The position numbers were made by a program, and so were the translations under genes. This document shows, in pieces, positions 5,903-44,945 of a DNA stretch of 44,945 bases. The DNA is from a virus: UHGV virus genome UHGV-1372148. The stretch is one strand, 5' to 3'. The notes under the pieces were generated by a model. The model saw only the letters and a program-made list of their open reading frames with translations, did not search any database and had not been told where the DNA came from. The stretch's first letter is position 1. The number at the start of each line of letters is the position of its first letter.

Positions 5903-8900
5903 TTATTTGATCTTTATGCCCGTTAGCGCTATCTCCTCGAGGGTGTCGCTCGTGCGCTTTGTCGTTGCTTCGATGCGTGCCATACGAGCGCCGAGGCCGT
6001 TAGTCTCGCTCTCGATATTGACGATGCTCTGAAGGATGAGGCCAGTCGTCGCCGTCAGCTGACGCGTATGCTCGGAGATCGTGAACGTGTGGCCTTGTAT
6101 GGCGGTCATACGGCCGTTAAGCTCGTCGATGCTATCCTGCGACGCCGTGGCGATGCCCTTCTGCGACGGCGTGCGCCCCTCGTCGCCGTTAGCGAACTTC
6201 TTTAAGCTGTCGTCGAGCGCGCCGTATACCTGCCCGAAGCTCTCGCCAATACGCCCTATCTCGGTGGCCATTTCGGCGGCCGAGCTATTCACGGCGTCGA
6301 TGCCTTTAAACGCGCCCTTCTCATTGAACCACTTCGACTTGTACTTATTGAATAGCTCCCCGAGCTGAGGCTCGAGGTACTTCGTCACGAGCATACGACG
6401 TACTATATCGCCGACGATCTCGTTCGTCTTCTTGTGCCATCCCTCCATAGCATCCTCGCCAGCCTTAGCGGCGTCGAAGAAGGCGTTACCGAGTTCGCTC
6501 GCGAGGCTCTCCGCCGAGCTCCCGATGATCTTCTCGAGAGGCTCGTTCAGTGCCTCGGCCATTTGGTTGCCGATCTCGGCCATCTTCTGCTTGTACTCCG
6601 CAACCTTCCCCTTATCGGTCTTCTTCTTCCCCTGCTCCGCCTCGATCTGCTCCTTAATGAGGAGCTGCTGTTTAGCGAGGTTCTCGAGCTTCGCGCGGCC
6701 GTCGTCCAGTCGTGCCTCGCCGAGGGCTTTGTTAGCCGTGTAGCTCATCTTCGCGTAGGCGTCGGCGATCTTCTCTACGGTCTTAGCGAAGATCTCCCCG
6801 CGGTTGCGAGCGACGGCGAACATGCGCTCCCACGTGCTACCCGTTGCGATGCTCTCCTTACGGAGTGCCATCACCTCGTCGCGTGTCGATGCGTAGAGGT
6901 CGCGCACCTTCTCGAGCGCGTCGCCGTACTCGGCGCTTAGACGCGTCGCACCCGTATTGGATAGCTCCCACTGGAGCTGGTCGATCTCGGCCTGCAGGCG
7001 CTCGATCTGCTTCTGCTTCTTCCCGTCGTTGTTAAAGAGGTTAGCTATCGCCGTGGCGACCTGCAGAGCGGCCGATATGACGGCCAGCACGACGGAGGCC
7101 TTCTCGACCATCGAGACGGCCGTAGCGCCTGCCGTGGCCGCTGCCGTAGCGCCAGCCGAGGCACTCTGCACCGTGTCCGCTACGCCCTTTGCGACGCTCT
7201 TACCGACGTCGCCGACGGCTTGTATCGCCGACGAGGTAGCGTCGATGACCTCGCCCGTGAAGTCTACGACCTGCGCCAGCCCATCGGCTACGTCCGTCGA
7301 GAAGACCGACGCGAGGAGCTTTGCCTTACCCCCGACGTCTTTAAGGACGCCGCCGACGTTGTGCAAGCTCGTAGTGAGATTAGCGTAGGAGGCCGTTATG
7401 CCATTGCGCGCCTGCATAGCACGACGCACCGCCTTGTCGCTCTCGTCCTGCGCCTTCGCCTGCACCTTCTGCGCCGCGGCGAGTTTCTCGTTAGCCTCGG
7501 CGATAGCGGCGAGGAACTCGGGCGTGGTGTGATCCTCGTGTGCGTCCTGTACGGCCGTCTTCTCACGCAGCGCCTCATTGTACGCGCGCTGTGCCTCGGT
7601 CAGTCGCTCCTGCGCGGCGACCATTGCACCGATAGCGTCGGAGTATTCCACCTTGGCGCGTGAGATGTCGCGGATAGCCTTATGTAGAGAGGCAAAGGGA
7701 TTGCGCCCTGCGATCTCCGCCTCCATATTCTTAATGGCCTCCTGATAGTCCTTGATCTCCTGCGTGGAGAGGACGCCCTTGTTGGCCTCGAAGTACTGGC
7801 GCACTCGTCCGAGTGTGTACTCGAGGACGGGCAGTGCCTGCTTCGTCAGATCGCCGAAGACGCTCTCCCAGTCGATAGCCTTGCGGAAGCGCTCGCTCGA
7901 GATCTTCGACAGCTCCTCGTCCATCTTCCGCACGGCCTCATCTTGGAACTCGACGGGCATCGTGGCGAGGCGCTTCGACCAGTCGCGCAGTAGCTTATCC
8001 TCCTTGTCTTGTATCGAGCCGAACTCGTCGATGAGTGCGTCGTGGTACTTCTCTTGTGCGGCCTTGATAGCGCGCTCGCCGTTGGCCGTCACCGCCTGCC
8101 ACATACTATCGTAGAGGCGTGCGATCTCGGGGCTATCCTTCGCGACGACTTCCTGCCAGTCCTTCGTCGTGCGCTTCCCCTCGGCGCTGTTTGCCCAGCC
8201 TACCTCGGTAGCGCCCTTCTTGCTCATGTAGATAGCCTTCGCCTCGGCCTTGCGCGCCTCGGCTATCGCTTCGTAGCGCTCGTTAAGGGCTTCGAGCTGC
8301 TTCTTCGTCCCTTGTCGGATCTCGTTAAGCTCACGCGTCAGCCCCGCCTCCTGCGCGTCGATAGCGAGCTTCGTTAGCTCGTCCTGCGCCTCCTTTATGT
8401 ACTTCTTTGCGTCCTTCGCGTAGGCCTCGCGCGCCAGTCTTTCCTCGAGTGCTGCCTTCGCAGGGTCGAACGTCCTCCCGCTCGTCTTGCTCTTCGTCGT
8501 GGTAGGGTCGACGTGTCCGCCGATATTAGCCGTCTGCTTCGTCTGCTCGGCGGCGGCGAAGGCCTTGCGGTAGGTGGCCTCGAGTTCGTCGGCCTCCTTT
8601 TGTAGCTTCTCGATAGCGCGCTTCTTCGTCAGCTCGTCGCGAGCGTCGGACGTGTACCAGCTACCATACTCGGCGGCCTTCTTGTTCTTAGCGTCTTGGA
8701 GCGCGATATAGGCCTCGGTGTATTTGGATAGTACCGCCTGCGCTTCCGCCTCGCGGAGCATCGTATTCGCATAGGCCTCTCCCTTCTCTTGCAGTACTCG
8801 CTTCCACTCGGCGGCGCTCTTGTAGTAGCCGAGAGCCTCGCCGTACTTACTGTTTAGCTCCTTGACGATCTGCTTCTCCTTATCCTTCGAGCCGCTATAA

Positions 8901-10234
8901 CGCTCGAGCTTCGCTTGGTAGTTGTCGATCTCGACCCGCGCCTTAATGTAGGCCTCGTTACCCTTCGACGTGATCTCGGCCATCTGCTTAGCCTTCTCCT
9001 CGGCCTCGGACGTGGCGGAGGCGAGGCTCGAGAGCCAGCCGACAAGCTCGCCGACGGCGACGATGAGCGCGCCGATACCCGTAGAGATAAGCGCGGCCTT
9101 GAGGCCTCGTAGCGCTATCGAGGCGGCGCGCGTCGCTACGGCCTGCGCCGTCGTGGCGGCCGTGGCGATGACGGTAGAGCCTGCCAGCGTGCGTTGTGCC
9201 GCGACACCCGTAGTAGCCGCCGTGTTGTTAGTCGCCTTGCTCGCCGTGTTGGCCGTCGTGGCGGCGGTGTTGGCTGTCGTGGCCACCGTCGACGCCGTCG
9301 TACTGACGGCCTCTTCGGACTGCTTCACGGCACTCTCGCCGAGGAGCTTATTCCATATCTTTTTTAGCGAGTTGAGGGTAACGAGTGTGAAGGCGCTATC
9401 CTTGTTAAGGGTCTGCTGGATCTGCTGTAAGCCCATCGTGATAGCCATCACGCTCTGTACGCGGAGCATTATCTGCTGGAGCTTCTCATTCTCCGCGCCG
9501 AACAGCCCCATAGCGCCCTGCGCCACGGCTGCCGCACCCGACAAGCCCGACAGCCCCGAGATAACGCCCTGCATGCCTCGCTGGTCGTGTGCGAGGATGT
9601 TCGCCTGCGCCGAGGCGTCAGACCACGCGTCGGTAAGGCGCGCGGCCTCGGCCTGCAACGCCTGATACTGCGCCGTGCCTCGTTGCCCTGCGGCCTCCAT
9701 CTCTACGAGTGCCGTCTTAATCTCACGCAGACGCTGGCGGAGCGAGACGTGCTTCTCTCCCGCCTGCTTTGCCTGCTCTCCCGTCGAGCGCAGGGCGTTC
9801 TCCTCCTTGTGCAGCTGGTCGGCCGTCGCCTCGATCTCGGCGAGGAGCTTCTTACGCGTTGCGATGAGCTGCTCGACGACCGCCTTCTGCTCGCGCAGTG
9901 CAGCCGCGCCCTTCGTGTCGCCTCGGCTCGTGGCCTTGCGTTGCTCCTCGGTGAGGCGTCGATACTCGGCCTCCAGCTCGGCGAGGCCTTGCTTATTAGA
10001 CGCGTACGTGCGGTCAAGGTCGGCGAACGCCTGCCCCAGCGTCTGCACCTGCTCCGAGAGCTGTGTGATGCCCTCCGAGCCCTTGCCGACGACAGCGCCG
10101 ACGCCACCCGAGGCGGCCTCTGCGACCGCCTTGTCTATATCGGTGAGTATCTGCTTCGCCTCCTCGGCGTCGCGGCGTAGTTCGCTCGTGTCTATTCCTA
10201 TGCCGTAGTAGCTCTTCCCGTCCTCGCTGTTCAT
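5903..10234 (-). CDS. Tail tape measure protein.
   Basis: 1443 aa, strongly alpha-helical and coiled-coil in composition (A/E/K/Q-rich) with Gly/Ala/Thr-rich hydrophobic central segments. It lies directly downstream of the frameshifted chaperone pair. Confidence 0.85.
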   Translation of the reverse strand: MNSEDGKSYYGIGIDTSELRRDAEEAKQILTDIDKAVAEAASGGVGAVVGKGSEGITQLSEQVQTLGQAFADLDRTYASNKQGLAELEAEYRRLTEEQRKATSRGDTKGAAALREQKAVVEQLIATRKKLLAEIEATADQLHKEENALRSTGEQAKQAGEKHVSLRQRLREIKTALVEMEAAGQRGTAQYQALQAEAARLTDAWSDASAQANILAHDQRGMQGVISGLSGLSGAAAVAQGAMGLFGAENEKLQQIMLRVQSVMAITMGLQQIQQTLNKDSAFTLVTLNSLKKIWNKLLGESAVKQSEEAVSTTASTVATTANTAATTANTASKATNNTAATTGVAAQRTLAGSTVIATAATTAQAVATRAASIALRGLKAALISTGIGALIVAVGELVGWLSSLASATSEAEEKAKQMAEITSKGNEAYIKARVEIDNYQAKLERYSGSKDKEKQIVKELNSKYGEALGYYKSAAEWKRVLQEKGEAYANTMLREAEAQAVLSKYTEAYIALQDAKNKKAAEYGSWYTSDARDELTKKRAIEKLQKEADELEATYRKAFAAAEQTKQTANIGGHVDPTTTKSKTSGRTFDPAKAALEERLAREAYAKDAKKYIKEAQDELTKLAIDAQEAGLTRELNEIRQGTKKQLEALNERYEAIAEARKAEAKAIYMSKKGATEVGWANSAEGKRTTKDWQEVVAKDSPEIARLYDSMWQAVTANGERAIKAAQEKYHDALIDEFGSIQDKEDKLLRDWSKRLATMPVEFQDEAVRKMDEELSKISSERFRKAIDWESVFGDLTKQALPVLEYTLGRVRQYFEANKGVLSTQEIKDYQEAIKNMEAEIAGRNPFASLHKAIRDISRAKVEYSDAIGAMVAAQERLTEAQRAYNEALREKTAVQDAHEDHTTPEFLAAIAEANEKLAAAQKVQAKAQDESDKAVRRAMQARNGITASYANLTTSLHNVGGVLKDVGGKAKLLASVFSTDVADGLAQVVDFTGEVIDATSSAIQAVGDVGKSVAKGVADTVQSASAGATAAATAGATAVSMVEKASVVLAVISAALQVATAIANLFNNDGKKQKQIERLQAEIDQLQWELSNTGATRLSAEYGDALEKVRDLYASTRDEVMALRKESIATGSTWERMFAVARNRGEIFAKTVEKIADAYAKMSYTANKALGEARLDDGRAKLENLAKQQLLIKEQIEAEQGKKKTDKGKVAEYKQKMAEIGNQMAEALNEPLEKIIGSSAESLASELGNAFFDAAKAGEDAMEGWHKKTNEIVGDIVRRMLVTKYLEPQLGELFNKYKSKWFNEKGAFKGIDAVNSSAAEMATEIGRIGESFGQVYGALDDSLKKFANGDEGRTPSQKGIATASQDSIDELNGRMTAIQGHTFTISEHTRQLTATTGLILQSIVNIESETNGLGARMARIEATTKRTSDTLEEIALTGIKIK

Positions 10235-36461: not shown

Positions 36462-36670
36462 CTACTTGGTGTTGTTTTCGAGTGCCTCCATACGGCGGCG
36501 GATCGTGTGGATCGTATTCTTTGAGTGCAGGCCGTACTTGTCGCAGAGGTAGCTGTACACTGCGACCTTTCGCACTCCGTCTCCTTGCATCAGCTTTTTG
36601 TAGTCGGCATAGATGCGCTGGTCGCGCTCGAGCCGCTCTCGCTGGTAGGGTGTTAGTATTCTTTTGTCCA
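36462..36670 (-). CDS. Cro-like / early-operon HTH regulator.
   Basis: 69 aa counted from MDKRILTPYQRERL. It is divergent from the CI-like repressor across the operator region. Confidence 0.4.
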
Positions 36671-36676
36671 TTTCGT

Positions 36677-36722
36677 TGTGGTACTTATTTGTATCTTTGT
36701 TCGTGGTACTTTTTAGTACCCA
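36677..36722. promoter_or_regulatory. Genetic-switch operator region with an inverted repeat GTGGTACT-N5-AGTACCCAC and a second GTGGTACTT half-site.
   Basis: Seen directly in the 135-bp divergent intergenic region, together with TAtcTTTG at 36693-36700. Confidence 0.4.
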
Positions 36723-36804
36723 CTGCAAAGGTAATACAAAATGTACTACTTGCAAATAGTAATACGTTGTTTTGTTTTACTCGGACTTGATAAAAGGCTG
36801 GTTT

Positions 36805-37653
36805 ATGTCTAATAATCAAAGGCTTGCGCTGATTTACGAGGCGCTGAAAAAATCTCAGAAAGTGCGCAATCAGTCGCACTTTGCGAGCCTCGTCGGGGAG
36901 AAAAGCAGGGGCAATCTGTCGAATTACCTCTCAGGATCTAAGCCTCTCGGCGATGACCTTGTAAAACGTTATGTTGTATCTCTCTCGGATGCTATGCCCG
37001 AGTTGTCTCTCGACTGGTTAAGGACTGGCGAGGGTGATATGGTACGCGCGTACCCCGCGCTCGCACCCGTAGAGGACAACCCAGGGGCGTCGCTCCCCGA
37101 TATAGGACGACGCACCGACGTATGGGTGGGGAAGGACGACCGCGTCTATTGGACGGAAGCCATACAAGTAGGAGACGAGGAGGACTACCAGCGTGCGACG
37201 CAGGAGGGGGTGAAGCTCATCCCCGAGTTCGCCGAGGCCTTCCGCGGTGGCACGACGGGCGAGGCCGAGGAGCTGCGCACCGTAGACACCTATTGGGGAC
37301 TGCCCGACGTAGACGGAAATATGGTAGTACCTATCCGCGGAGACTCTATGGCACCTCGCTATCCTGCTGGCTGTCGCGTCGTCCTCAAGCCCTATCCCTT
37401 CAATCCTCGCCGCCCTTTGCTCCTGCCCTTTGGTGAGGTCTTTGCCGTGGCCGTGAGGCAGGAGGACGGCTATCCTCCGACGCACTACCTCAAGAAGCTA
37501 CACCGCCACCCCGACAAAGCGAAGGAGAACTACTACTATATCGCTCGGAGCTTTAACAAGGAGTACGAGGACTTCGAGATACCTATCAATGATATATGCT
37601 TCCTCTCGGCGGTCGTCGCTAAGATAGACCTCGAGCATACGTTCACGTTCTAA
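36805..37653 (+). CDS. CI-like repressor (N-terminal HTH plus C-terminal S24 LexA-type peptidase).
   Basis: PIRGDSMAPRYPAGCRVVLK carries the S24 Ser nucleophile motif. N-terminal HTH ends with LDWLRTGEG. Confidence 0.75.
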   Translation: MSNNQRLALIYEALKKSQKVRNQSHFASLVGEKSRGNLSNYLSGSKPLGDDLVKRYVVSLSDAMPELSLDWLRTGEGDMVRAYPALAPVEDNPGASLPDIGRRTDVWVGKDDRVYWTEAIQVGDEEDYQRATQEGVKLIPEFAEAFRGGTTGEAEELRTVDTYWGLPDVDGNMVVPIRGDSMAPRYPAGCRVVLKPYPFNPRRPLLLPFGEVFAVAVRQEDGYPPTHYLKKLHRHPDKAKENYYYIARSFNKEYEDFEIPINDICFLSAVVAKIDLEHTFTF

Positions 37654-37666
37654 ATCGCATACACCT

Positions 37667-38200
37667 ATGAAAAGAATTACCCTCTCTCTTCTCACTCTCG
37701 CCCTCCTCGGCGCACCAGCCGTCACGTCGTGTAAGAAGGACACACCCGCCGACGTCGTGAAGCCTTCGAGCCGTATCTCCAGCGTCGCACGCGCGCTGTC
37801 GGGTGCTTTCCACGGCGAGCAGATGGCCTCGCCCTCGACATTTGCGAAGCCCGTTATCGAGGTAGAGGACTTAGTATTTACGCCCTACGCGTCGACGCAG
37901 AAGAAGTACTACACACGTGGCGGGGAGGAGTTCGATGCCTTCGGCGAGGTCACCTCGGAGAGCTATATCAAGATCGACGGCGTCGCCCAGCCGTCGATAA
38001 AGCGAAATAACCTCTACTCGCTCCGCGAGGCTGGGAGCGAGGTGTACCTCACGATCTACTCCCTCGACGGCGGTCTAAAGGACTACGTCACGGGGAAGAC
38101 GTCACGCGTCATTACCGACGTCACCGCCGACGGCTTCACCCTCCTGCGCTTCGAGGGTGCGACCTCACCCTCCGACAAGATGGCGTTCAAGCGCCGATAA
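37667..38200 (+). CDS. Lipoprotein co-transcribed with the repressor (candidate superinfection-exclusion / lysogenic-conversion protein).
   Basis: Signal peptide MKRITLSLLTLALLGAPAVTSC, with Cys followed by KKD. Confidence 0.55.
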   Translation: MKRITLSLLTLALLGAPAVTSCKKDTPADVVKPSSRISSVARALSGAFHGEQMASPSTFAKPVIEVEDLVFTPYASTQKKYYTRGGEEFDAFGEVTSESYIKIDGVAQPSIKRNNLYSLREAGSEVYLTIYSLDGGLKDYVTGKTSRVITDVTADGFTLLRFEGATSPSDKMAFKRR

Positions 38201-38204
38201 GGCA

Positions 38205-38618
38205 ATGCAGGACAGACTTAAGGCTATCATCGAGTACAAGACGGGCGGGCGCATCGGGGAGTTCGGTGAGCTCCTCGGGTGGTCGCCTCAGTACATAAGC
38301 AAGCTCCTCCGCGGTGCGAGCATCGGCTTATCGCCCGTTCGTACGATCCTCGAGGCACTGCCCGAGATTAACGCCCGCTGGCTGATCCTCGGAGAGGGGC
38401 AGATGCTCGACAATGCGCACGTCTCGGCGCTCCGTCGTGAGGCCGTGGCGCGCGCCTCCTCGCTTATGGCTATCGATAGGTATATAGACGTGATGACGCC
38501 CGACGAACTGCGACGCCTCGAGAAGGCTATCGCGTCGGGGCGCGCCCCCTCCTTCTCTCCGTCCGACGTTGCACGCTGGGAGCTACTGCAACAACAGCCA
38601 CCACACGCTAACCACTAA
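38205..38618 (+). CDS. HTH (XRE-like) regulator, paralogue 1.
   Basis: LLGWSPQYISKLLRG followed by ARWLILGEGQM. Confidence 0.5.
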   Translation: MQDRLKAIIEYKTGGRIGEFGELLGWSPQYISKLLRGASIGLSPVRTILEALPEINARWLILGEGQMLDNAHVSALRREAVARASSLMAIDRYIDVMTPDELRRLEKAIASGRAPSFSPSDVARWELLQQQPPHANH

Positions 38619-38625
38619 GCGCTCT

Positions 38626-38895
38626 ATGCAGTCCGACGATATGCAGGCCATCACGCGCCGCTTCTTCGACGCCCTCGCACGCCTCAAGGCCGACGGCACT
38701 ATACGGGGGAAGAAGACGTTTACAGATCGCTTCGGCATCAATCGCTGGAACTTAAACAGCGTGGAGAAAGACCCTACGGCCTGCCGAGTGCCTGCCACGT
38801 GGCTATCCTATCTCGTAGTCGGTTACAACGTCTCCGCCGACTGGCTACTCACTGGCCGCGGTGACTTCTACGGGGCGGTGCGTCGCTCTAAGTAG
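38626..38895 (+). CDS. HTH (XRE-like) regulator, paralogue 2.
   Basis: FTDRFGINRWNLNSV followed by ADWLLTGRGDF. Confidence 0.5.
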   Translation: MQSDDMQAITRRFFDALARLKADGTIRGKKTFTDRFGINRWNLNSVEKDPTACRVPATWLSYLVVGYNVSADWLLTGRGDFYGAVRRSK

Positions 38896-38939
38896 TACAC
38901 TTTTGTGTATCTTTGTAGCGTAAACTAATCGCTACAATT

Positions 38940-39254
38940 ATGAGACAACGACTACGCGCTTACATACGCGCAAAGGGCATCACCGAGTACCGCTTCCTGA
39001 AGGAGGCGAAGCTCTCCCTCGCCTTCTTCACCTCCAGCGCCGACGGCGTCAGCGCCCGCACGCTCGTCAAGATCGGCGAGGCCTTCCCCGACCTCAATCT
39101 CGACTGGGTGACCACTGGCAACGGCTCGATGACGACCGACGCCTCCGACGGCTACATATCAATGGCCGACCACCAGCGCGCCCTGCGACGGAAGGACGAC
39201 GAGATCGAGCGCCTGAAAGCACAACTATCCGAGCTACGCTCCCGTCTTAAATAG
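38940..39254 (+). CDS. HTH regulator, paralogue 3, with a C-terminal coiled coil.
   Basis: GVSARTLVKIGEAFPDLNLDWVTTGNGSM followed by IERLKAQLSELRSRLK. Confidence 0.5.
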   Translation: MRQRLRAYIRAKGITEYRFLKEAKLSLAFFTSSADGVSARTLVKIGEAFPDLNLDWVTTGNGSMTTDASDGYISMADHQRALRRKDDEIERLKAQLSELRSRLK

Positions 39255-39273
39255 CCACCTCGGCGGGGCAGGC

Positions 39274-39409
39274 AAAAAAAACTTTTCCCAAATTTTGGTA
39301 GTACACAAAAATGTATTATCTTTGTAGTGTGAAAGGGGAACAACGAAGCCCCATCCACAAGATCGAACTATAAGTAACAACTAAAAGAGTAAACGAAAAT
39401 GGAAACGAA
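39274..39409 (+). repeat. Copy A of the ~130-bp duplicated promoter / 5'-leader / start-codon cassette.
   Basis: About 95 % identical to 41715-41848. Contains TTTG (39294-39297) and TAtcTTTG (39317-39324) 19 nt apart, a GGGG-N10-CCCC hairpin, then ATGGAAACGAA. Confidence 0.8.
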
Positions 39410-39896
39410 GAAGATCACCCTCGAAGGCATCGAATTTTACGAAGACCGCTACAGCGGCAATCTTGTAGCATACGACAAGATCGAAGGCGTAGACGACATT
39501 GACGACGCTAAGCGACGTATCGAAGCCCTCCTTTGCTCCTACATCAAGGAGTACCCTTACTTCGGCACTTGGAGCATCAAGATGGACACCAAGGACGGCC
39601 ACACTGTAGAGCTGCGCTGGTCGTGCGACAGCGTCGAAGAGTACGACGAGTTCATTACGACGTTCGTAGACAACGAACGCGTGTACGACAACAACCAATC
39701 AAACTACCTCATAAAGGCGTACGAGATCGGCGACGCAAAGTGGACGCTCGCTTCTACCGACGAGGAGATCGGCGAGATTAGCGAGGCGTGGTTTAAGGGC
39801 CACGTTGAGGAGGTCATCGAGCGATACCCCGAAGAGTTCACCGACGAAGAGAAGGCTCGCGCCGAGGTGGTGAAACCCCTCCTCGCCGAGTACTAA
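39399..39896 (+). CDS. Highly acidic small protein (candidate DNA-mimic / anti-restriction protein).
   Basis: 165 aa, strongly D/E-rich. It is driven by repeat copy A and ends in a GC hairpin plus T-tract terminator. Confidence 0.55.
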   Translation: METKKITLEGIEFYEDRYSGNLVAYDKIEGVDDIDDAKRRIEALLCSYIKEYPYFGTWSIKMDTKDGHTVELRWSCDSVEEYDEFITTFVDNERVYDNNQSNYLIKAYEIGDAKWTLASTDEEIGEISEAWFKGHVEEVIERYPEEFTDEEKARAEVVKPLLAEY

Positions 39897-39913
39897 GATA
39901 ACGGCCAAAAGAA

Positions 39914-39950
39914 GCGCCCCCTGCGATTAGCTCGTCGGGGGCGTTTTCGT
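39914..39950 (+). terminator. Rho-independent terminator.
   Basis: GCGCCCCC-N14-GGGGGCGT followed by TTTCG. Confidence 0.55.
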
Positions 39951-40059
39951 CTATTTGGGTGCGCGTTTGTTGCTCGCGTTGCGTGGTGTCTGTGGCAACG
40001 CCTCGTAGGTCAGTTAGTTAAGTGCGTCGTGTAACATTCTGCATCGGAAAGTAGCGGGG

Positions 40060-40240
40060 TATTTACGTGCGACAAACGACGGCAAGCGTACGACAAACGA
40101 CAGCAAGATAACGCGCTTAAATAGTAGGCCTACGCATCGCGCCTCGGGGCGTTCGTTTTGTCGTTGTTTGCTTTTCTATTGTCGCAGGTTTGTTGTTACT
40201 TTGTTGCTCGAGAACCACTAAGCAACAACGAGCAACAAAT
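40060..40240. promoter_or_regulatory. Candidate attP / integrase regulatory region.
   Basis: Direct repeats CGACAAACGACRGCAAG at 40070-40086 and 40091-40107, 21 bp apart. Inverted repeat TTTGTTGCTCG-N19-CGAGCAACAAA at 40199-40239, just before the int ATG. Confidence 0.35.
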
Positions 40241-40242
40241 CT

Positions 40243-41388
40243 ATGGCTACCTCTAAAGACCCCGTGCGCCTGCGTCGGCGCACCACGCCCTCGGGGCGCA
40301 TATCACTCTACCTCGACATATACCACGAGGGATCGCGACGATACGAGTATCTAAAGCTCTACCTCGTCGCCGAGCGCACACGCGCCGATAAGGAAGCTAA
40401 CCGCGAGACACTCCAGCTCGCCGAGGCTATCCGAGCGAAGCGACTACTCGAACTACGTAACGGCCTCTACGGCTTCGCCACGGCCAAGCCTAAGGCGCGC
40501 TTCTTCGACTACTACTGCTCGCTCGTCGAGCAACGCCACGGCGACGAGAGCGAGGGGAACTGGAACAACTGGCGCTCCGCCCTTCACCACCTCCGCCATT
40601 ATGAACGACGGGAGAGTATCAAGCTCTCCGAGATCACGCCCGACTGGGTGCTGGGCTTTCGCGACTTCCTCCGCCACGACGCCCGCGCGTGGTCGGGGAA
40701 TTTTCGCAAACGCATAGACGACAAGCCCCTCGCGGTCAATAGTCAAGTATCGTATTTCAATAAGCTACGCGCCTGCCTCCGACAAGCCCACGAGGAGGGG
40801 CTGATCCCGAGCAACCCCGCCAAGGCCGTAGACGGAATAAAGGAAGAGGAGGCGACGCGTATGTATCTCACGATCGACGAGGTTCGCCTGCTGGCACAGA
40901 CTGAGTGCGCCTATCCTGGCATCAAGGCCGCGTTCCTCTTCTCCTGCCTCACGGGCTTGCGTCGCTCCGACATAACGCGCCTAACGTGGTCGGACGTCCA
41001 CACACACGGAGATTACACGCGTATCATCTTTCGTCAAAAGAAGACGCGCGGGCAGGAGTACCTCGATATTACCCCCGAGGCCGTCGAGCTTATGGGGGAG
41101 CGAGGACGCCCCGACGCGCTCGTTTTCCCCGACGTCCACACGGCTAACTGCACTAACAACGCTATACGCCTATGGGTGGCACGTGCGGGCATCGCAAAGG
41201 ACATTACCTTCCACTGCGCACGCCATACGTTCGCTACTATGATGCTCGACCTCGGGACGGACATATACACCGTGAGTAAGCTCCTCGGTCATCGCTTCCT
41301 CTCGACGACGCAGATATATGCGAAGGTGCTGGATAAGAGCAAGCAGGAGGCTGTGTCGTCGATACCCTCTATCCTCGGCGGTGAGTGA
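40243..41388 (+). CDS. Tyrosine integrase (site-specific recombinase, phage-integrase family).
   Basis: C-terminal catalytic region with R...HCARHTFATMM...LGHRFLSTTQIYAKV (R-H-R-Y pattern). Confidence 0.8.
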   Translation: MATSKDPVRLRRRTTPSGRISLYLDIYHEGSRRYEYLKLYLVAERTRADKEANRETLQLAEAIRAKRLLELRNGLYGFATAKPKARFFDYYCSLVEQRHGDESEGNWNNWRSALHHLRHYERRESIKLSEITPDWVLGFRDFLRHDARAWSGNFRKRIDDKPLAVNSQVSYFNKLRACLRQAHEEGLIPSNPAKAVDGIKEEEATRMYLTIDEVRLLAQTECAYPGIKAAFLFSCLTGLRRSDITRLTWSDVHTHGDYTRIIFRQKKTRGQEYLDITPEAVELMGERGRPDALVFPDVHTANCTNNAIRLWVARAGIAKDITFHCARHTFATMMLDLGTDIYTVSKLLGHRFLSTTQIYAKVLDKSKQEAVSSIPSILGGE

Positions 41389-41714
41389 CGTATTTTGCGT
41401 ATCTTTGCCGTTAGATGTTGCTCCAGTTGTTGCGCATCTGTTCGATCTGATAGGGGAGGCGCCGCCGTGTGCTTCCCCTATCTCTTCCCCTCCTCCCCGT
41501 GTAAACCATTTCGTTAACTCCAACGATATGGTTTAAAAGATCAAGGCCTCGACGCTGTTACACGCCGAGGCCTCTCTCTCATCTATCTACCTGCTAAAAC
41601 CCTGCGACTTAGGCGCTCCCGCGCATCCATCGCTGTATCAGTTTAATGAAGAACCGAAGCAAAGGTAGCTATACATTTCCATTTAACCAAATGGTTAAAT
41701 TTTCGGGTGGGCGG

Positions 41715-41848
41715 ACAAAAACTTTCGGTGAATTTTGGTAGTACACAAAAATGTATTATCTTTGTAGTGTGAAAGGGGAACAACGAAGCCCCGCCACAAG
41801 ATCGAACTACAAGTAACAACTAAAAGAGTAAACGAAAATGGAAACGAA
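41715..41848 (+). repeat. Copy B of the duplicated promoter / 5'-leader cassette.
   Basis: See copy A. The TTAACCAAATGGTTAA palindrome lies just upstream at 41683-41698. Confidence 0.8.
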
Positions 41849-42230
41849 AATGAACATCGAGGCTTTCGGGCTGACGTTTAAGAGAATTGACGACAAGAGC
41901 GGTGTCCGATACCAAGCTAAGGTGTATAAGGTAGCCGAGAGCGTAAATGATGTTAAGGGGGCGCTCCTCCACGTAATGTGTAAGGCGATAGATGCAGAAC
42001 CAATGGTTGTATCACATCCTTACGGCATATCAGTTCAGATCTCAGACGAGTACGACGGCTACCTCTACCCAATCATAGCGATATGCAAGCCTGCCGAAGA
42101 CGTCGCTGAGTGGCTCGGGAATTATTACCACGAAGTTGCCCGAGTGCTGGGGGACGGTACCGAGGTCCGATACGGTGTTCCCTACCGAACGGGGCTACCT
42201 TGCGAGGAGTACTGGGAAGACTGGGACTAA
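41838..42230 (+). CDS. Acidic small protein (second cassette cargo; lower GC).
   Basis: 130 aa starting METK from the shared cassette. Followed by the terminator CGCCCCGACT-N10-AGTCGGGGCG. Confidence 0.5.
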   Translation: METKMNIEAFGLTFKRIDDKSGVRYQAKVYKVAESVNDVKGALLHVMCKAIDAEPMVVSHPYGISVQISDEYDGYLYPIIAICKPAEDVAEWLGNYYHEVARVLGDGTEVRYGVPYRTGLPCEEYWEDWD

Positions 42231-42244
42231 CAAAGATAAAGATG

Positions 42245-42282
42245 CGCCCCGACTGCAGTAGGTAGTCGGGGCGTTCTCTTCA
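42245..42282 (+). terminator. Rho-independent-type terminator.
   Basis: 10-bp perfect GC-rich stem followed by TTCTCTTC. Confidence 0.5.
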
Positions 42283-42504
42283 TAAAAGAAGGGCGAGGAA
42301 GTCACACCTCCCCGCCCTTGTTAGACGTTGCGAGATTAAGCGAATAATCACGTACATCTGTGAGCATAAGCTCGTTTCAATTCAGCACCCCGAAGGGTGG
42401 ACACGTAGAAGCGTGCACTCATCTACACTGCAAATGTAGGGAAAGTTTTGATACCACCAAACACCCGCAGACCTTTTTCGTGAGGTCACGAAAATGCTCT
42501 CACG

Positions 42505-42969
42505 TTAGAGAAGCCCACGCAGTATCGGTAGCCACAACTTCCTCGACACCCACGCACCGAGGGCGATGGCAATAGCCAGCAGTGGGGCAAAGGCTTTGAG
42601 GCGCATAGCCTGCCACGCAGTGAGCTTGGCTGGTACTTCGACGTGCCTTGTGATAGTATGCACGACGCGCACGCTATCGACACGTCCTGCGTTGATAGTA
42701 TCGTGGACAACTCTATCTCTGTTGCGATAGACCTCCTTCGTCTTGTATATAGTGTCGCCTGCCTGCCTCTCGGTGACATACACGCTGTCGTGGATGTACA
42801 CGCTGTCTAACCGCCAGCGGTCTCGCCACTCTACGCGTCCGCGCCACTCTGTTCGGGTGTTCTCTACTGGGAGTACCCGTCGGGAGCAGGAGGTGAGGGC
42901 ATAGCCTATCAGTGCCACGGCTATGACAACAAGGAGCGTTTCCCACCAGCTTAGTCTATTTGTTTTCAT
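42505..42969 (-). CDS. Lipoprotein / membrane protein.
   Basis: N-terminal signal plus Cys (ALIGYALTSC) and a C-terminal hydrophobic helix. Confidence 0.45.
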   Translation of the reverse strand: MKTNRLSWWETLLVVIAVALIGYALTSCSRRVLPVENTRTEWRGRVEWRDRWRLDSVYIHDSVYVTERQAGDTIYKTKEVYRNRDRVVHDTINAGRVDSVRVVHTITRHVEVPAKLTAWQAMRLKAFAPLLAIAIALGAWVSRKLWLPILRGLL

Positions 42970-43338: not shown

Positions 43339-44945
43339 CTATCTAAAATTAAGTGTGAAGCCCTTGGCGGATGCCTTTTGGCTGTACTCTCGAGCCACTG
43401 CCGTGTGCGCCGTCTGCCAAGCTCTCGCAAGCGTGATAGACTTCCCCGTCACCTGCTGGAGGTTATCGACGAGGAATTTCACGCTCTCAACGGAGAGGTT
43501 GGCGCTATGCTGGAGATTGAGGTCTGCCTTGAGCCCCTTGATGCGCACCTCCTCCAAAGCCTCGCAGAGGTATAACATGTTGGTCGTTGCGGCGAGCTTT
43601 GAGAAGTCCAGCGTGCCGTTGATGCGTCGCAGGCGAGTGCAGCCGTTGAAGGCGTTATCTACCTTGGTCAGCGCATCGCCCGTGCCGAGCGTCACCTCCG
43701 TGAGCGACGAGCACTGCTGTGCTATCTGCGCTATATCGGTCACGTTGGGGGTCTCCCCGATGGTCAGCGTCTTAAGCGACGCACAGAGCGTGGCGAGGAG
43801 CGATAGCGTCGTGCATCGTGGCATTGCGCCTATCGTAATCGTCTCGAGTGCTGCGCACCCGTAGAAAGCACCTGATGCGAGAGCGACGGCGGGTAGGTCG
43901 GGGAGTGTTGCCGTAGTCATAGATGCGCACCCACTGCACATTTGGCTGATGTTCGAGATTTGCCCAGCGTTGCGGATCTCGGGGAGAACCTTAAGGGCTG
44001 ACGCGTTTGTAAACATACTATAGAAGTCTGCGGGATTGAACTCAGAGTAAACCTCGAGCGTCGGGAGGTAATCCGACTTAAAGCCGCTAAGCTGACGCAA
44101 CGCATACACGGGGAACACGTACACCTTAATCTCTTGGATCTTGCCCGCTAGGTCAGTTAGCCCGTCGGTGTCATCCACCGATACGCCCTTGGCACGCATG
44201 GCCGTGATGATTTCCCTGCGGTGGCCGTCTGCCTCCAGCAGTTGCGCTCCTGCGGTCGTGTTCTCGGGTGCGCTCTCGTCTGTGCCGTTGTTGATCTTGT
44301 AGAGTAGCTCTATCTCTGTTTTGTTCATACCTTCTTCGTTGCTTCCGTTGTTGCTTCTTGCGCTTGCCCACTCCTTCTCGGAGAGCTTGGGATTGTCTGT
44401 CGTGGTCTCAAGGTAGGATTGGTAGGCATTCTTCCCGTCCTTCCCCTTTAGGCTGGCGAGCCAATCAGCCTGCGAGCCTTGGTAGCCTCCTGCCTTAGCA
44501 AGCTCGTACGCACTCTTACCTGCATCGCCCTTGAGGCTCTCCAGCCACTCCTCACGTGAGCCTTGATACCCGCCAGCCTTGGCTACCTCGTAGGCATCCT
44601 TGCCGTCCGAGCCACGAAGGGACGCAAGCCACGCCTGCTCGTCACCTACGTAGCCATTGCGCACCGCCACCTTGTAGGCGCTTTCTCCGTCTGCTCCCTT
44701 GAGCGAGGCTATCCACTCCGTTAGGCTACCCTCGTAGCCCTCCGACTTAGCGAGTTCGTAGGCGGATAGCCCCGTCGCACCGATGAGGGTCTTTAACCAC
44801 TCCTCTCGGCTACCCGTGTAGCCCGCTTTCTTGGCGACTTCGTATGCATCTGCACCATCCTTGCCGACAAGGCTCTTTAGCCACTCTTGGAGCGTGCCTT
44901 GGTAGCCCTCTTGCACCGCCAGCTCGTAGGCGGACTTGCCGTTAC
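43339..44945 (-). CDS. C-terminal part of the wrap-around tail-fibre-like protein: eight 28-aa tandem repeats, then a BspA-type leucine-rich-repeat region.
   Basis: Repeats (K/R)G.DGKSAYE.AK..GY.GS..EWL.SL occur eight times. The C-terminal part has LRR-like segments (FNGCTRLRRINGTLDFSKL...EALEEVRIKGL). The ORF is open to the right edge of the window. Confidence 0.55.
   Translation of the reverse strand, partial: NGKSAYELAVQEGYQGTLQEWLKSLVGKDGADAYEVAKKAGYTGSREEWLKTLIGATGLSAYELAKSEGYEGSLTEWIASLKGADGESAYKVAVRNGYVGDEQAWLASLRGSDGKDAYEVAKAGGYQGSREEWLESLKGDAGKSAYELAKAGGYQGSQADWLASLKGKDGKNAYQSYLETTTDNPKLSEKEWASARSNNGSNEEGMNKTEIELLYKINNGTDESAPENTTAGAQLLEADGHRREIITAMRAKGVSVDDTDGLTDLAGKIQEIKVYVFPVYALRQLSGFKSDYLPTLEVYSEFNPADFYSMFTNASALKVLPEIRNAGQISNISQMCSGCASMTTATLPDLPAVALASGAFYGCAALETITIGAMPRCTTLSLLATLCASLKTLTIGETPNVTDIAQIAQQCSSLTEVTLGTGDALTKVDNAFNGCTRLRRINGTLDFSKLAATTNMLYLCEALEEVRIKGLKADLNLQHSANLSVESVKFLVDNLQQVTGKSITLARAWQTAHTAVAREYSQKASAKGFTLNFR

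What the first reader, a model, noticed from the sequence alone, without database searches (positions are those of the whole stretch)
39274..41848. Duplicated ~130-bp promoter / leader / start-codon cassette driving two unrelated acidic proteins on either side of the integrase.
Two copies at 39274-39409 and 41715-41848 are about 95 % identical over about 130 bp. Each includes a Bacteroidetes -33 / -7 promoter (TTTG-N19-TAtcTTTG), an approximately 75-nt leader with a GGGG..CCCC hairpin, and the first codons (ATG GAA ACG AA). The downstream ORFs then diverge completely: a 165-aa and a 130-aa protein, both strongly acidic, the second with lower GC. This looks like a portable expression cassette into which different cargo genes have been swapped. 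Acidic small proteins at a phage arm next to int are typical of DNA-mimic anti-restriction proteins (Ocr / ArdA-like) or other anti-defence factors. The long conserved leader could also carry post-transcriptional control.
Basis: seen in the sequence. Interest (0 to 1): 0.75.

Follow-up and report, generated by a model that had tools for sequence, protein, structure and literature searches.

The report
Shared regulated promoter cassette, swappable phage genes
A temperate phage of oral Bacteroidales carries two near-identical copies of a promoter, leader and start-codon block, probably controlled by one phage repressor, and related phages use the same block in front of at least 15 different small genes, one of them a viral copy of Cas2.

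Summary
The repeat is real. Window 39277-39411 and 41717-41850 are 93% identical, and 97% identical from the -33 box to codon 4. The same arrangement occurs in independent assemblies.

Each copy holds a Bacteroidetes -33/-7 promoter with a TACAC-N4-RTGTA inverted repeat in its spacer. After the promoter come a short 5' hairpin, an A-rich leader and ATG GAA ACG AA. A gene and a terminator follow.

The portable-cassette idea is well supported. I found 96 instances in related phages, heading 15 cargo families that BLAST does not link. Homology stops at about codon 4-9 and resumes at or just after the terminator. The first codons follow the leader type, not the cargo.

A roughly 105-aa helix-turn-helix (HTH) gene (38940-39254) sits upstream of copy A. 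Its own promoter carries the same operator as a perfect palindrome. Across phages, HTH type and operator type go together.

Neither ORF shows any match to Ocr or ArdA, and their function is unknown. One sister cargo is a true Cas2 homologue, which points towards anti-defence.

The attP core (40037-40053) lies between the two cassettes, so they sit at opposite prophage ends.

This is a new variant of moron and acr-aca-like loci.

The parts
38896..38915 (+). Promoter of the HTH gene. It holds a perfect palindromic operator, TACACTTTTGTGTA (38896-38909), which overlaps the -7 box TATCTTTG (38908-38915).
   Evidence: Sequence. The motif TACACNNNNRTGTA occurs only here and in the two cassettes, against 0.07 expected by chance. 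The GTAGTACA 8-mer is also shared.
38940..39254 (+). Gene for a 104-aa CI-type HTH protein with a C-terminal coiled-coil-like tail. Proposed repressor of its own promoter and of both cassettes (HTH cluster 2).
   Evidence: ORF. phmmer links it to the window's other CI-type HTH proteins, and the same gene lies directly upstream of cassettes in related phages. HTH cluster and operator type go together.
39277..39411 (+). Repeat copy A. A-tract; -33 TTTG 39294-39297; operator TACACAAAAATGTA 39302-39315; -7 TATCTTTG 39317-39324; hairpin GGGG/CCCC 39335-39352; A-rich leader; ATG 39399 followed by GAA ACG AA.
39399..39896 (+). ORF-A, cargo family F2. 165 aa, pI 4.33, with no known family.
39914..39947 (+). 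Intrinsic terminator of cassette A: GCGCCCCC ... GGGGGCG followed by TTTT. Homology with phages carrying other cargo resumes here.
   Evidence: Sequence. Homology resumes at 39905-39934.
40037..40053 (.). attP core, TTCTGCATCGG and neighbouring bases.
   Evidence: The host-int junction in L136 starts matching the window at 40037. The cassette-A-host junctions in L010 and L138 stop matching at 40053/40054.
40243..41388 (+). Tyrosine integrase with an arm-binding domain.
   Evidence: Pfam PF17293, PF13102 and PF00589; phrog_1.
41717..41850 (+). Repeat copy B. -33 41734-41737; operator 41742-41755; -7 41757-41764; hairpin 41775-41792; ATG 41838. No HTH gene of its own is adjacent.
41838..42230 (+). 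ORF-B, cargo family F3. 130 aa, pI 4.74. Confident alpha/beta model; small family.
42244..42281 (+). Intrinsic terminator of cassette B: GCGCCCCGAC ... GTCGGGGCG followed by a T-rich tail. Homology with phages carrying other cargo resumes at 42280.
   Evidence: Sequence.

Best explanation
The two repeats are two members of a small regulon of self-contained accessory-gene cassettes in a temperate phage of oral Bacteroidales (Alloprevotella-like host).

**Anatomy.** Each cassette has a host-type -33/-7 promoter with a TACAC-N4-RTGTA inverted repeat in its spacer. After the promoter come a short stem-loop near the 5' end, an unstructured A-rich leader with A at -3 and -6, and the first four or five codons (ATG GAA ACG AAG AAG, giving METKK). 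Next comes an exchangeable ORF fused in frame, then an intrinsic terminator.

**Proposed control (inferred).** The roughly 105-aa HTH protein encoded just upstream of copy A (38940-39254) binds this operator as a dimer. It would bind at its own promoter, where the palindrome is perfect, and at both cassette promoters, where there is one mismatch. Because the operator lies between the -33 and -7 boxes, binding should block RNA polymerase. That would give a burst of expression when phage DNA enters a cell without the protein, followed by damped steady expression, as in the Aca control of anti-CRISPR promoters. Copy B has no regulator of its own. On this view it stays nearly identical to copy A because it must answer to the same protein and use the same translation start region.

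**Exchange.** The conserved 5' block and the conserved 3' flank give homologous recombination its footholds. Related phages therefore carry different cargo in the same slots.

**Cargo.** The cargo proteins are small, mostly acidic, cytoplasmic proteins without known domains. I take them to be inhibitors of host functions, most likely of anti-phage defence (about 0.45 for ORF-A and ORF-B individually).

**What is shown and what is inferred.** Shown: the repeat, the motifs, the mosaic breakpoints, the variety of cargo, the association of HTH type with operator type, and the attP position. Inferred: the transcription start, HTH binding, timing of expression, and cargo function.
For: - **Repeat and motifs:**
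- **Operator:** TACACNNNNRTGTA occurs only at the HTH-gene promoter and the two cassettes, against 0.07 expected. In related loci it recurs as a pair, one at the HTH promoter and one at the cassette.
- **HTH neighbour:** an HTH gene lies directly upstream of most of the 65 unique instances.
- **HTH type tracks operator type:** three HTH clusters go with three operator types, 20/20, 12/12 and 7/7. The two arms change in step (TTTTCAC/GTGAAAA versus TTTTTAC/GTAAAAA).
- **Cargo variety:** 15 cargo families; families F0, F2 and F3 occur behind both leader classes.
- **Breakpoints:** homology stops at 39410-39426 and resumes at 39905-39934. For slot B it stops at 41848-41858 and resumes at 42280.
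- **First codons:** they follow the leader type, and are identical at synonymous sites across 7 families.
- **Translation start region:** A at -3 in 87% and at -6 in 96% of instances. This fits translation start rules for Bacteroidetes, which lack Shine-Dalgarno sequences (PMC6847099).
- **Hairpin:** the 5' hairpin covaries in the sister leader class.
- **Composition:** both ORFs have lower GC than the backbone.
- **Cargo function:** no Pfam, PHROG, NCBIfam or credible PADLOC hit for the cargo. Sister cargo F1 is a true Cas2 homologue. Viral cas homologues are known to act as anti-CRISPRs (bioRxiv 10.1101/2023.06.24.545427).
- **Precedent for control:** Aca proteins repress acr promoters through inverted repeats, in some cases in both directions (PMC8633003, PMC12282945).
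Against: - No transcript data exist. The start site, promoter strength and timing are all predicted.
- The HTH gene and its operator lie within 150 bp of each other. They would be inherited together whether or not they interact.
- The HTH gene lies upstream of, or divergent from, the cargo. In classical acr-aca operons it lies downstream.
- The window's own hairpin is weak (z -1.2 to -1.8), and the whole leader folds no better than shuffled sequence.
- All these genes sit in the lysogeny block, co-oriented with the CI-like repressor and int. That fits prophage-expressed morons just as well.
- One sister cargo is a lipoprotein and two are basic, so the cargo pool is not uniform.
- No ORF-A or ORF-B homologue has a known function, and neither model resembles a known anti-defence protein.
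Confidence: 0.68

Rival explanations
1. These are prophage-expressed morons that benefit the lysogen. The cassettes would be transcribed from the integrated prophage and their products would protect or alter the host, for example by superinfection exclusion, immunity or fitness effects, rather than disarm host defence during infection.
For: - Both cassettes lie in the plus-strand lysogeny block with the CI-like repressor, a lipoprotein gene and int.
- Promoter plus gene plus terminator, with GC below the backbone, is the classical moron layout.
- One sister cargo (F11) is a lipoprotein.
- After integration the cassettes sit at the two prophage ends, a usual site for lysogenic-conversion genes.
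Against: - Most cargo proteins are small, acidic and cytoplasmic, with no enzymatic or membrane features and no credible PADLOC defence hit.
- A truncated viral Cas2 is easier to read as a counter-defence protein.
- A dedicated autorepressor with an operator inside the promoter suggests expression is held down at steady state.
Confidence: 0.3
2. ORF-A and ORF-B are very diverged paralogues from a duplication. The upstream region stayed alike through purifying selection or gene conversion, so nothing was 'swapped' between these two.
For: - The order of predicted secondary-structure elements is the same (three strands, helix, two or three strands, helix, two strands, helix).
- hhalign gives 21-52% probability over the N-terminal 54-78 residues.
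- BLASTP E = 0.055 in the same register.
Against: - With the shared first six residues removed, hhalign falls to 6%.
- The ORF-A model is only of medium confidence (pLDDT 70).
- A profile search of 1.84 billion proteins with the ORF-B family found 14 clusters, and no length near 165 aa (ORF-A's) is among the 14 clusters.
- Even if true, this does not explain the 13 other cargo families or the sharp mosaic breakpoints.
Confidence: 0.2
3. The conserved leader is a dedicated cis-regulatory RNA, such as a riboswitch, thermosensor, attenuator or sRNA target. That role, rather than promoter control, would be why it is conserved.
For: - The leader is conserved beyond the promoter.
- The two-tier 5' stem-loop covaries in the sister leader class.
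- Two structured sRNA-like units flank cassette B.
Against: - No Rfam match even at E = 1.
- Whole-leader folding is no better than shuffled sequence (z -0.3 to -1.4).
- Downstream of the hairpin the leader varies freely between classes and is simply A-rich.
- Duplex energies with the sRNA-like units are not clearly better than shuffled controls, and the method was crude.
Confidence: 0.12
4. The repeat is an assembly artefact, or exists mainly as a recombination substrate, for example to loop out the attP-int module.
For: Direct repeats of 135 bp flanking a 2.4-kb segment could recombine. In the prophage they would flank almost the whole genome.
Against: - The copies differ at 8 positions and one indel.
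- The arrangement is found in independent samples and assemblers.
- Single copies occur in many phages in front of other genes.
- No deletion product was seen among the loci fetched.
Confidence: 0.03

Closest known systems
acr-aca loci (anti-CRISPR genes with an anti-CRISPR-associated HTH repressor)
   Same: Small, acidic, orphan proteins that vary between related phages are driven by a strong host-type promoter. The promoter carries an inverted repeat, and a small HTH gene sits next to it. The HTH gene is itself predicted to be autoregulated. Divergent versions recall the bidirectional control by Aca11 and Aca13 (PMC8633003, PMC12282945).
   Different: The HTH gene lies upstream of, or divergent from, the cargo, not downstream in the same operon. 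One HTH gene appears to serve two or three separate cassettes. No cargo matches a known Acr, and no HTH was shown to match a known Aca. The conserved block also includes the 5' leader and first codons. The host phylum is Bacteroidota.
Morons (promoter-gene-terminator units inserted in phage genomes; a definition recalled from the lambdoid phage literature)
   Same: Each unit is autonomous, with its own predicted promoter and terminator. It is present or replaced in otherwise similar phages, and its base composition differs from the backbone.
   Different: Morons are usually unrelated insertions, each with its own signals. Here many different genes share one standard 5' expression block and a cognate regulator.
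Hotspots of accessory and defence genes in P2-like phages and P4-like satellites (PMC9122126)
   Same: Fixed genomic slots between conserved flanks hold a changing set of genes.
   Different: The P2 and P4 hotspots carry large, recognisable defence systems. Here the cargo is small orphan proteins, and the conserved 5' flank is itself the promoter, leader and start codon.
T-even phage internal-protein locus with a shared N-terminal capsid-targeting sequence (recalled from memory, not tested here)
   Same: A variable set of ORFs shares conserved upstream signals and the first residues of the protein. At least one member of that locus (IPI) is an anti-restriction protein.
   Different: Here the shared N-terminus is only 4-5 residues. 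It changes with the leader type, and looks like a feature of the translation start region rather than a targeting peptide.
Ocr / ArdA DNA-mimic anti-restriction proteins
   Same: Small and acidic (ORF-A has a net charge of about -22).
   Different: There is no sequence or fold match. ORF-B is predicted to be a compact alpha/beta domain with only about -9 net charge.

Membership tests
Moron | Own promoter upstream of the gene | tested here: met
   Full TTTG-N19-TAnnTTTG match; 7 in the window against 0.05 expected. This is a motif match only; no transcript data.
Moron | Own terminator downstream | tested here: met
   GC-rich hairpins followed by T runs at 39914-39947 and 42244-42281, read from the sequence. 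The simple scanner did not list them, probably because their loops are too long.
Moron | Present, absent or replaced in otherwise related phages | tested here: met
   Breakpoints at codon 4-9 and at or just after the terminator; four cargo families follow the same HTH cluster.
Moron | Expressed from the repressed prophage | not testable with these tools
   Needs RNA-seq of a lysogen.
acr-aca locus | HTH (Aca-like) gene next to the small cargo gene | tested here: met
   Met for copy A (38940-39254) and for most of the 65 unique instances. Copy B has none of its own.
acr-aca locus | aca lies downstream of acr in one operon | tested here: not met
   The HTH gene is upstream and co-directional, or divergent.
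acr-aca locus | Inverted-repeat operator in the acr promoter, bound by the HTH | tested here: inconclusive
   An inverted repeat is present in three promoters, and its type goes with the HTH cluster. Binding was not tested.
acr-aca locus | Cargo inhibits a CRISPR-Cas system, or is homologous to a known Acr | not testable with these tools
   No Acr library was available. PDB sequence searches found nothing meaningful. Sister cargo F1 is a Cas2 homologue, which is suggestive only.
Ocr/ArdA DNA mimics | Sequence membership (e.g. the Pfam ArdA family) | tested here: not met
   No Pfam, PHROG or NCBIfam hit.
Ocr/ArdA DNA mimics | Elongated fold with a DNA-like array of carboxylates | tested here: inconclusive
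Integron gene cassettes | Promoterless cassettes bounded by attC sites next to an integron integrase | tested here: not met
   Each cassette has its own promoter and terminator. No attC-like repeats were found. The integrase is a phage type with an arm-binding domain.
Known cis-regulatory RNA (Rfam) | Match to a curated covariance model | tested here: not met
   No match at gathering score or at E <= 1.

The most novel reading that the evidence does not exclude
This block of operator, promoter, 5' stem-loop, leader and METKK start, together with its cognate small HTH gene, may be the Bacteroidota-phage counterpart of the acr-aca signature. On that reading it is a standard 'plug' marking a pool of anti-defence genes. 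The pool would include ORF-A, ORF-B and a dominant-negative viral Cas2. The block could then be used as a search handle to find anti-defence proteins in a phylum where almost none are known.
Probability: 0.35. Interest if true: 0.8.

Novelty: new variant of a known kind. Interest (0 to 1): 0.62.

Why it matters
Anti-defence and other accessory genes of Bacteroidota phages are almost unknown, because the proteins have no recognisable homologues. A conserved non-coding block with its partner regulator gives a way to find them that does not depend on protein sequence, much as aca genes did for anti-CRISPRs.

The block also shows what a complete expression signal may look like in a phylum without Shine-Dalgarno sequences: promoter, 5' hairpin, A-rich leader and first codons, moving together as one unit. 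That could be useful for building expression tools for Prevotella and Bacteroides relatives.

The viral Cas2 in the same slot is a testable lead on interference with spacer acquisition.

Tried and rejected
- **Rfam:** the whole window at gathering score, and 39200-42550 at E <= 1, gave nothing.
- **tRNA scan:** none found.
- **Phage GenBank collection:** megablast of 36700-42400 found no match.
- **PADLOC MTase_III hit for ORF-A (E 1.6e-4):** rejected, because only 2 of 10 family members show it.
- **hhalign link between ORF-A and ORF-B (21-52%):** largely an effect of the shared METKK. It drops to 6% after trimming six residues. The link between ORF-B and family F6 drops in the same way, from 71% to 3%.
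- **RNAalifold on both leader classes together:** no consensus structure, because the classes do not align. The window's leader class could not be tested for covariation, since its 5' arm is invariant and MAFFT placed gaps unevenly.
- **Pairing between the two sRNA-like units and the leaders:** not convincing, and the method was crude.
- **Fold searches:** The viral structure library gave no match for ORF-B.
- **PDB sequence searches:** nothing meaningful for ORF-A, ORF-B, the HTH protein or the Cas2-like cargo.
- **Metagenome scan:** 56 matches across all scans of the 18-nt core were set aside because flanks, leader or an ORF were missing; most are chance, a few are true family members.
- **Literature:** searches found no description of this cassette.
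Full report
**1. The observation**

The repeat is real. Window 39277-39411 and 41717-41850 align with 126 of 135 identical columns (93.3%). From the -33 element to the fourth codon the figure is 113 of 116 (97.4%). A 59-nt core is exact in both copies, occurs nowhere else in the window, and is never seen in shuffled sequence. Similarity ends abruptly on both sides.

Each copy contains the following elements:
- TTTG-N19-TATCTTTG, one of only seven full Bacteroidetes-type -33/-7 matches in the window, against 0.05 expected.
- A GGGG-N10-CCCC hairpin (39335-39352 and 41775-41792).
- An A-rich stretch.
- ATG GAA ACG AA.

| | ORF-A | ORF-B |
|---|---|---|
| Length | 165 aa | 130 aa |
| pI | 4.33 | 4.74 |
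| Net charge | about -22 | about -9 |
| GC | 54.0% | 51.7% |

The whole window is 58.4% GC, so both ORFs are below the backbone.

Each ORF is followed by a GC-rich hairpin and a T run (39914-39947 and 42244-42281).

The same order (HTH gene, ORF-A, integrase, ORF-B) is present in contigs from other samples and other assemblers (L137, L139, L136, L004). An assembly artefact is therefore excluded.

**2. Context**

The window is a temperate phage genome in its excised form. A plus-strand lysogeny block (36772-42230) holds these genes in order:
- a CI-like repressor with a weak S24 peptidase match;
- a lipoprotein;
- three further CI-type HTH genes;
- ORF-A;
- a tyrosine integrase;
- ORF-B.

Replication, lysis and tail genes lie on the minus strand (annotated relatives). 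One ORF-B homologue is named by NCBI as coming from an Alloprevotella MAG.

Three contigs show the junction between prophage and host. In L136, similarity to the window begins at 40037. In L010 and L138, similarity ends at 40053/40054. The attP core is therefore about 40037-40053 (TTCTGCATCGG), between cassette A and int. After integration the two cassettes lie at opposite ends of the prophage.

**3. The block is used in front of many genes**

I scanned IMG/VR, GTDB genomes and metagenomes with the 18-21-nt core around the -7 box and start region. After filtering on the leader, this gave 96 instances, 65 of them unique.

Two leader classes exist:
- **Class G**, the window's type: GUGUGAAAGGGGAACAAC.AAGCCCC.
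- **Class C**: GUGUCAAAGGG..AGAGA..CCC..GACAC GUAACGUAAA.

They head 15 cargo families that BLASTP does not link. Most are small and acidic. None of those tested has a credible Pfam, PHROG or NCBIfam match. ORF-A is family F2 and ORF-B is family F3. Families F0, F2 and F3 occur behind both leader classes, so leader and cargo reassort.

The breakpoints are sharp:
- **Slot A:** phages with the same upstream HTH gene but other cargo (L016, L026, L130) match the window up to 39410-39426, and again from 39905-39934.
- **Slot B:** L002, L044 and L111 match up to 41848-41858, and again from 42280.

The first codons follow the leader type rather than the cargo family. For example, F2 begins METKK, MKTT or MNKT depending on the leader. 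ATG GAA ACG AAG AAG, or a one-codon variant of it, opens seven families. The exchangeable unit thus starts inside the ORF, after about five codons, and ends at or just after the terminator.

**4.

In most instances a 102-120-aa CI-type HTH gene lies directly upstream. It is either co-directional, as in the window (38940-39254), or divergent.

The HTH proteins form clusters, and each cluster goes with one operator type:

| HTH cluster | Orientation | Operator type | Association |
|---|---|---|---|
| 0 | divergent | arms TTTTCAC ... GTGAAAA around the -33 box | 20/20 |
| 1 | divergent | arms TTTTTAC ... GTAAAAA | 12/12 |
| 2 (window type) | co-directional | TACAC-N4-RTGTA in the spacer | 7/7 |

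The matched change in both arms between clusters 0 and 1 is what a palindromic operator would show.

In the window, TACACNNNNRTGTA occurs at only three places, against 0.07 expected:
- 38896-38909, a perfect palindrome that overlaps the -7 box of the HTH gene's own promoter;
- 39302-39315, in cassette A;
- 41742-41755, in cassette B.

In related loci the motif always appears as a pair, one at the HTH promoter and one at the cassette.

I infer that the HTH protein represses itself and both cassettes. I also infer that copy B, which has no HTH gene of its own, is kept nearly identical because it depends on the same protein.

Physical linkage of gene and operator is a confounder, and binding has not been tested.

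**5. The leader**

The whole leader folds no better than shuffled sequence (z -0.3 to -1.4). The window's hairpin alone is weak (-6.2 kcal/mol, z -1.2 to -1.8). Rfam has nothing.

In class C a two-tier stem-loop at the very 5' end is supported:
- 88.9% of cells are paired, against 30-57% when the partner is slid.
- Three pairs show compensatory changes.
- The covariation score exceeds all 500 shuffles.

In class G the 5' arm never varies, so there is no test. The 3'-arm variants CCCU and CCUC would keep G-U pairs.

The rest of the leader is A-rich, with A at -3 in 87% and at -6 in 96% of instances. This fits the rules for translation start in Bacteroidetes, which do not use Shine-Dalgarno pairing (PMC6847099).

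My reading is that the hairpin is a 5'-end stabiliser and that the leader plus first codons form an optimised start region. The role of 5' stem-loops in mRNA stability is general knowledge from E. coli and B. subtilis work and was not tested here.

**6. The proteins**

ORF-A models at pLDDT 70 and ORF-B at pLDDT 88. Both show the same order of elements: three strands, a helix, two or three strands, a helix, two strands, a helix.

The weak hit lists overlap. Neither Ocr nor ArdA appears. The viral structure library gives nothing.

Profile comparison gives 21-52% probability over the N-terminal part. With the shared first six residues removed it falls to 6%. Homology of the two ORFs is therefore neither shown nor excluded.

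The ORF-B family is small: 14 clusters among 1.84 billion representatives. A PADLOC hit of ORF-A to a type III methyltransferase is spurious, because only 2 of 10 family members show it.

One sister cargo, F1 (88-90 aa), is a genuine but shortened Cas2 homologue. It is 31-39% identical over nearly its whole length to Bacteroidota Cas2 proteins, with E down to 7e-11 across 5.8 billion sequences. Viral cas homologues can act as anti-CRISPRs (bioRxiv 10.1101/2023.06.24.545427).

**7. Interpretation and rivals**

The best-supported account is a regulon of standardised accessory cassettes under a small autorepressor. It works like an acr-aca locus and is built like a set of morons.

The cargo function remains open. 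I put anti-defence at about 0.45 for ORF-A and ORF-B, and prophage-benefit morons at about 0.3. The diverged-paralogue view could hold for this pair (about 0.2), but it does not explain the family-wide pattern.

A dedicated riboregulator, a recombination role and an assembly artefact are all unlikely.

**8. Novelty**

The ingredients are all known: morons, Aca-type control, accessory hotspots. I found no description of a shared block of operator, promoter, leader and start codon that serves many cargo genes in Bacteroidota phages. I class it as a new variant of a known kind.

Noticed in passing
window 41691-41535 (minus strand): A small transcription unit that looks like an sRNA gene. It has a full -33/-7 promoter (41691-41660), divergent from cassette B, and about 90 nt further on a 13-bp GC-rich terminator hairpin with a T run (41574-41543). 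The 119-nt RNA folds at -48.5 kcal/mol, z -4.0. No Rfam match. It could instead encode a 15-aa peptide.
   Followed up: partly
window 42461-42285 (minus strand): A second sRNA-like unit just beyond the ORF-B terminator. Promoter TTTGGTGGTATCAAAA...TACATTTG (42461-42431) and a 14-bp terminator hairpin (42319-42289). The 140-nt RNA folds at -53.5 kcal/mol, z -4.1. The region is conserved in phages with other cargo (L002, L044, L111), and a similar promoter plus terminator lies in L005 at about 9300-9460.
   Followed up: partly
related loci L012, L017, L019, L021, L023, L025, L030, L035 and others (cargo family F1): An 88-90-aa basic phage protein driven by the same cassette is a shortened homologue of Bacteroidota CRISPR Cas2. 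PADLOC Cas2_II gives E 2e-8. It is 31-39% identical to Capnocytophaga, Rikenella and Saprospiraceae Cas2. It may be a dominant-negative inhibitor of spacer acquisition.
   Followed up: partly
window 40037-40053; L136 about 1026; L010 about 10655; L138 about 6654: The attP core (TTCTGCATCGG) was mapped from three prophage-host junction contigs. The region between the core and int holds tandem CGACAAACGACNGCAAG repeats (40066-40107) and several TTGTTGC / GCAACAA motifs, which are likely integrase arm sites.
   Followed up: partly
L005 about 8000-8090 and L006: A more distant relative is integrated right next to a tRNA-like sequence in an Alloprevotella-type contig. It carries two 'divergent HTH plus cassette' modules in tandem at that prophage end, with no integrase on that side.
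   Followed up: no
L010 11200-11440: The host-side flank of a prophage junction has about eight copies of a 17-nt unit (GATTACTATATAGCTTT) spaced about 30 nt apart. They look like iterons, in AT-rich DNA, and may belong to another mobile element.
   Followed up: no
window 36660-36760: The intergenic region between the CI-like repressor gene and the leftward early operon holds a perfect palindrome, GGTACTTTTTAGTACC (36706-36721), and further GGTACT/AGTACA half-sites. The leftward promoter (36756-36726) shares GTAGTACA and TGTATTA with the cassette promoters. These are probably the main immunity operators.
   Followed up: partly
window 36772-39254: Four paralogous CI-type HTH genes lie in a row (36772, 38157, 38569, 38940), all with a W-x-x-x-G-x-G motif. 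Only the first shows even a weak S24 peptidase match. A lipoprotein gene (37667-38200, with a lipobox Cys) follows the repressor gene, as superinfection-exclusion lipoproteins do in other temperate phages.
   Followed up: no
window 43339-44916 (minus strand): The 525-aa tail-fibre-like protein has internal repeats. At the DNA level there are 252-bp-spaced repeats at 44532-44932. At the protein level there are repeated ...GxDGxSAYE(L/V)AKxxGYxGSxxEWLxSLKG... units.
   Followed up: no
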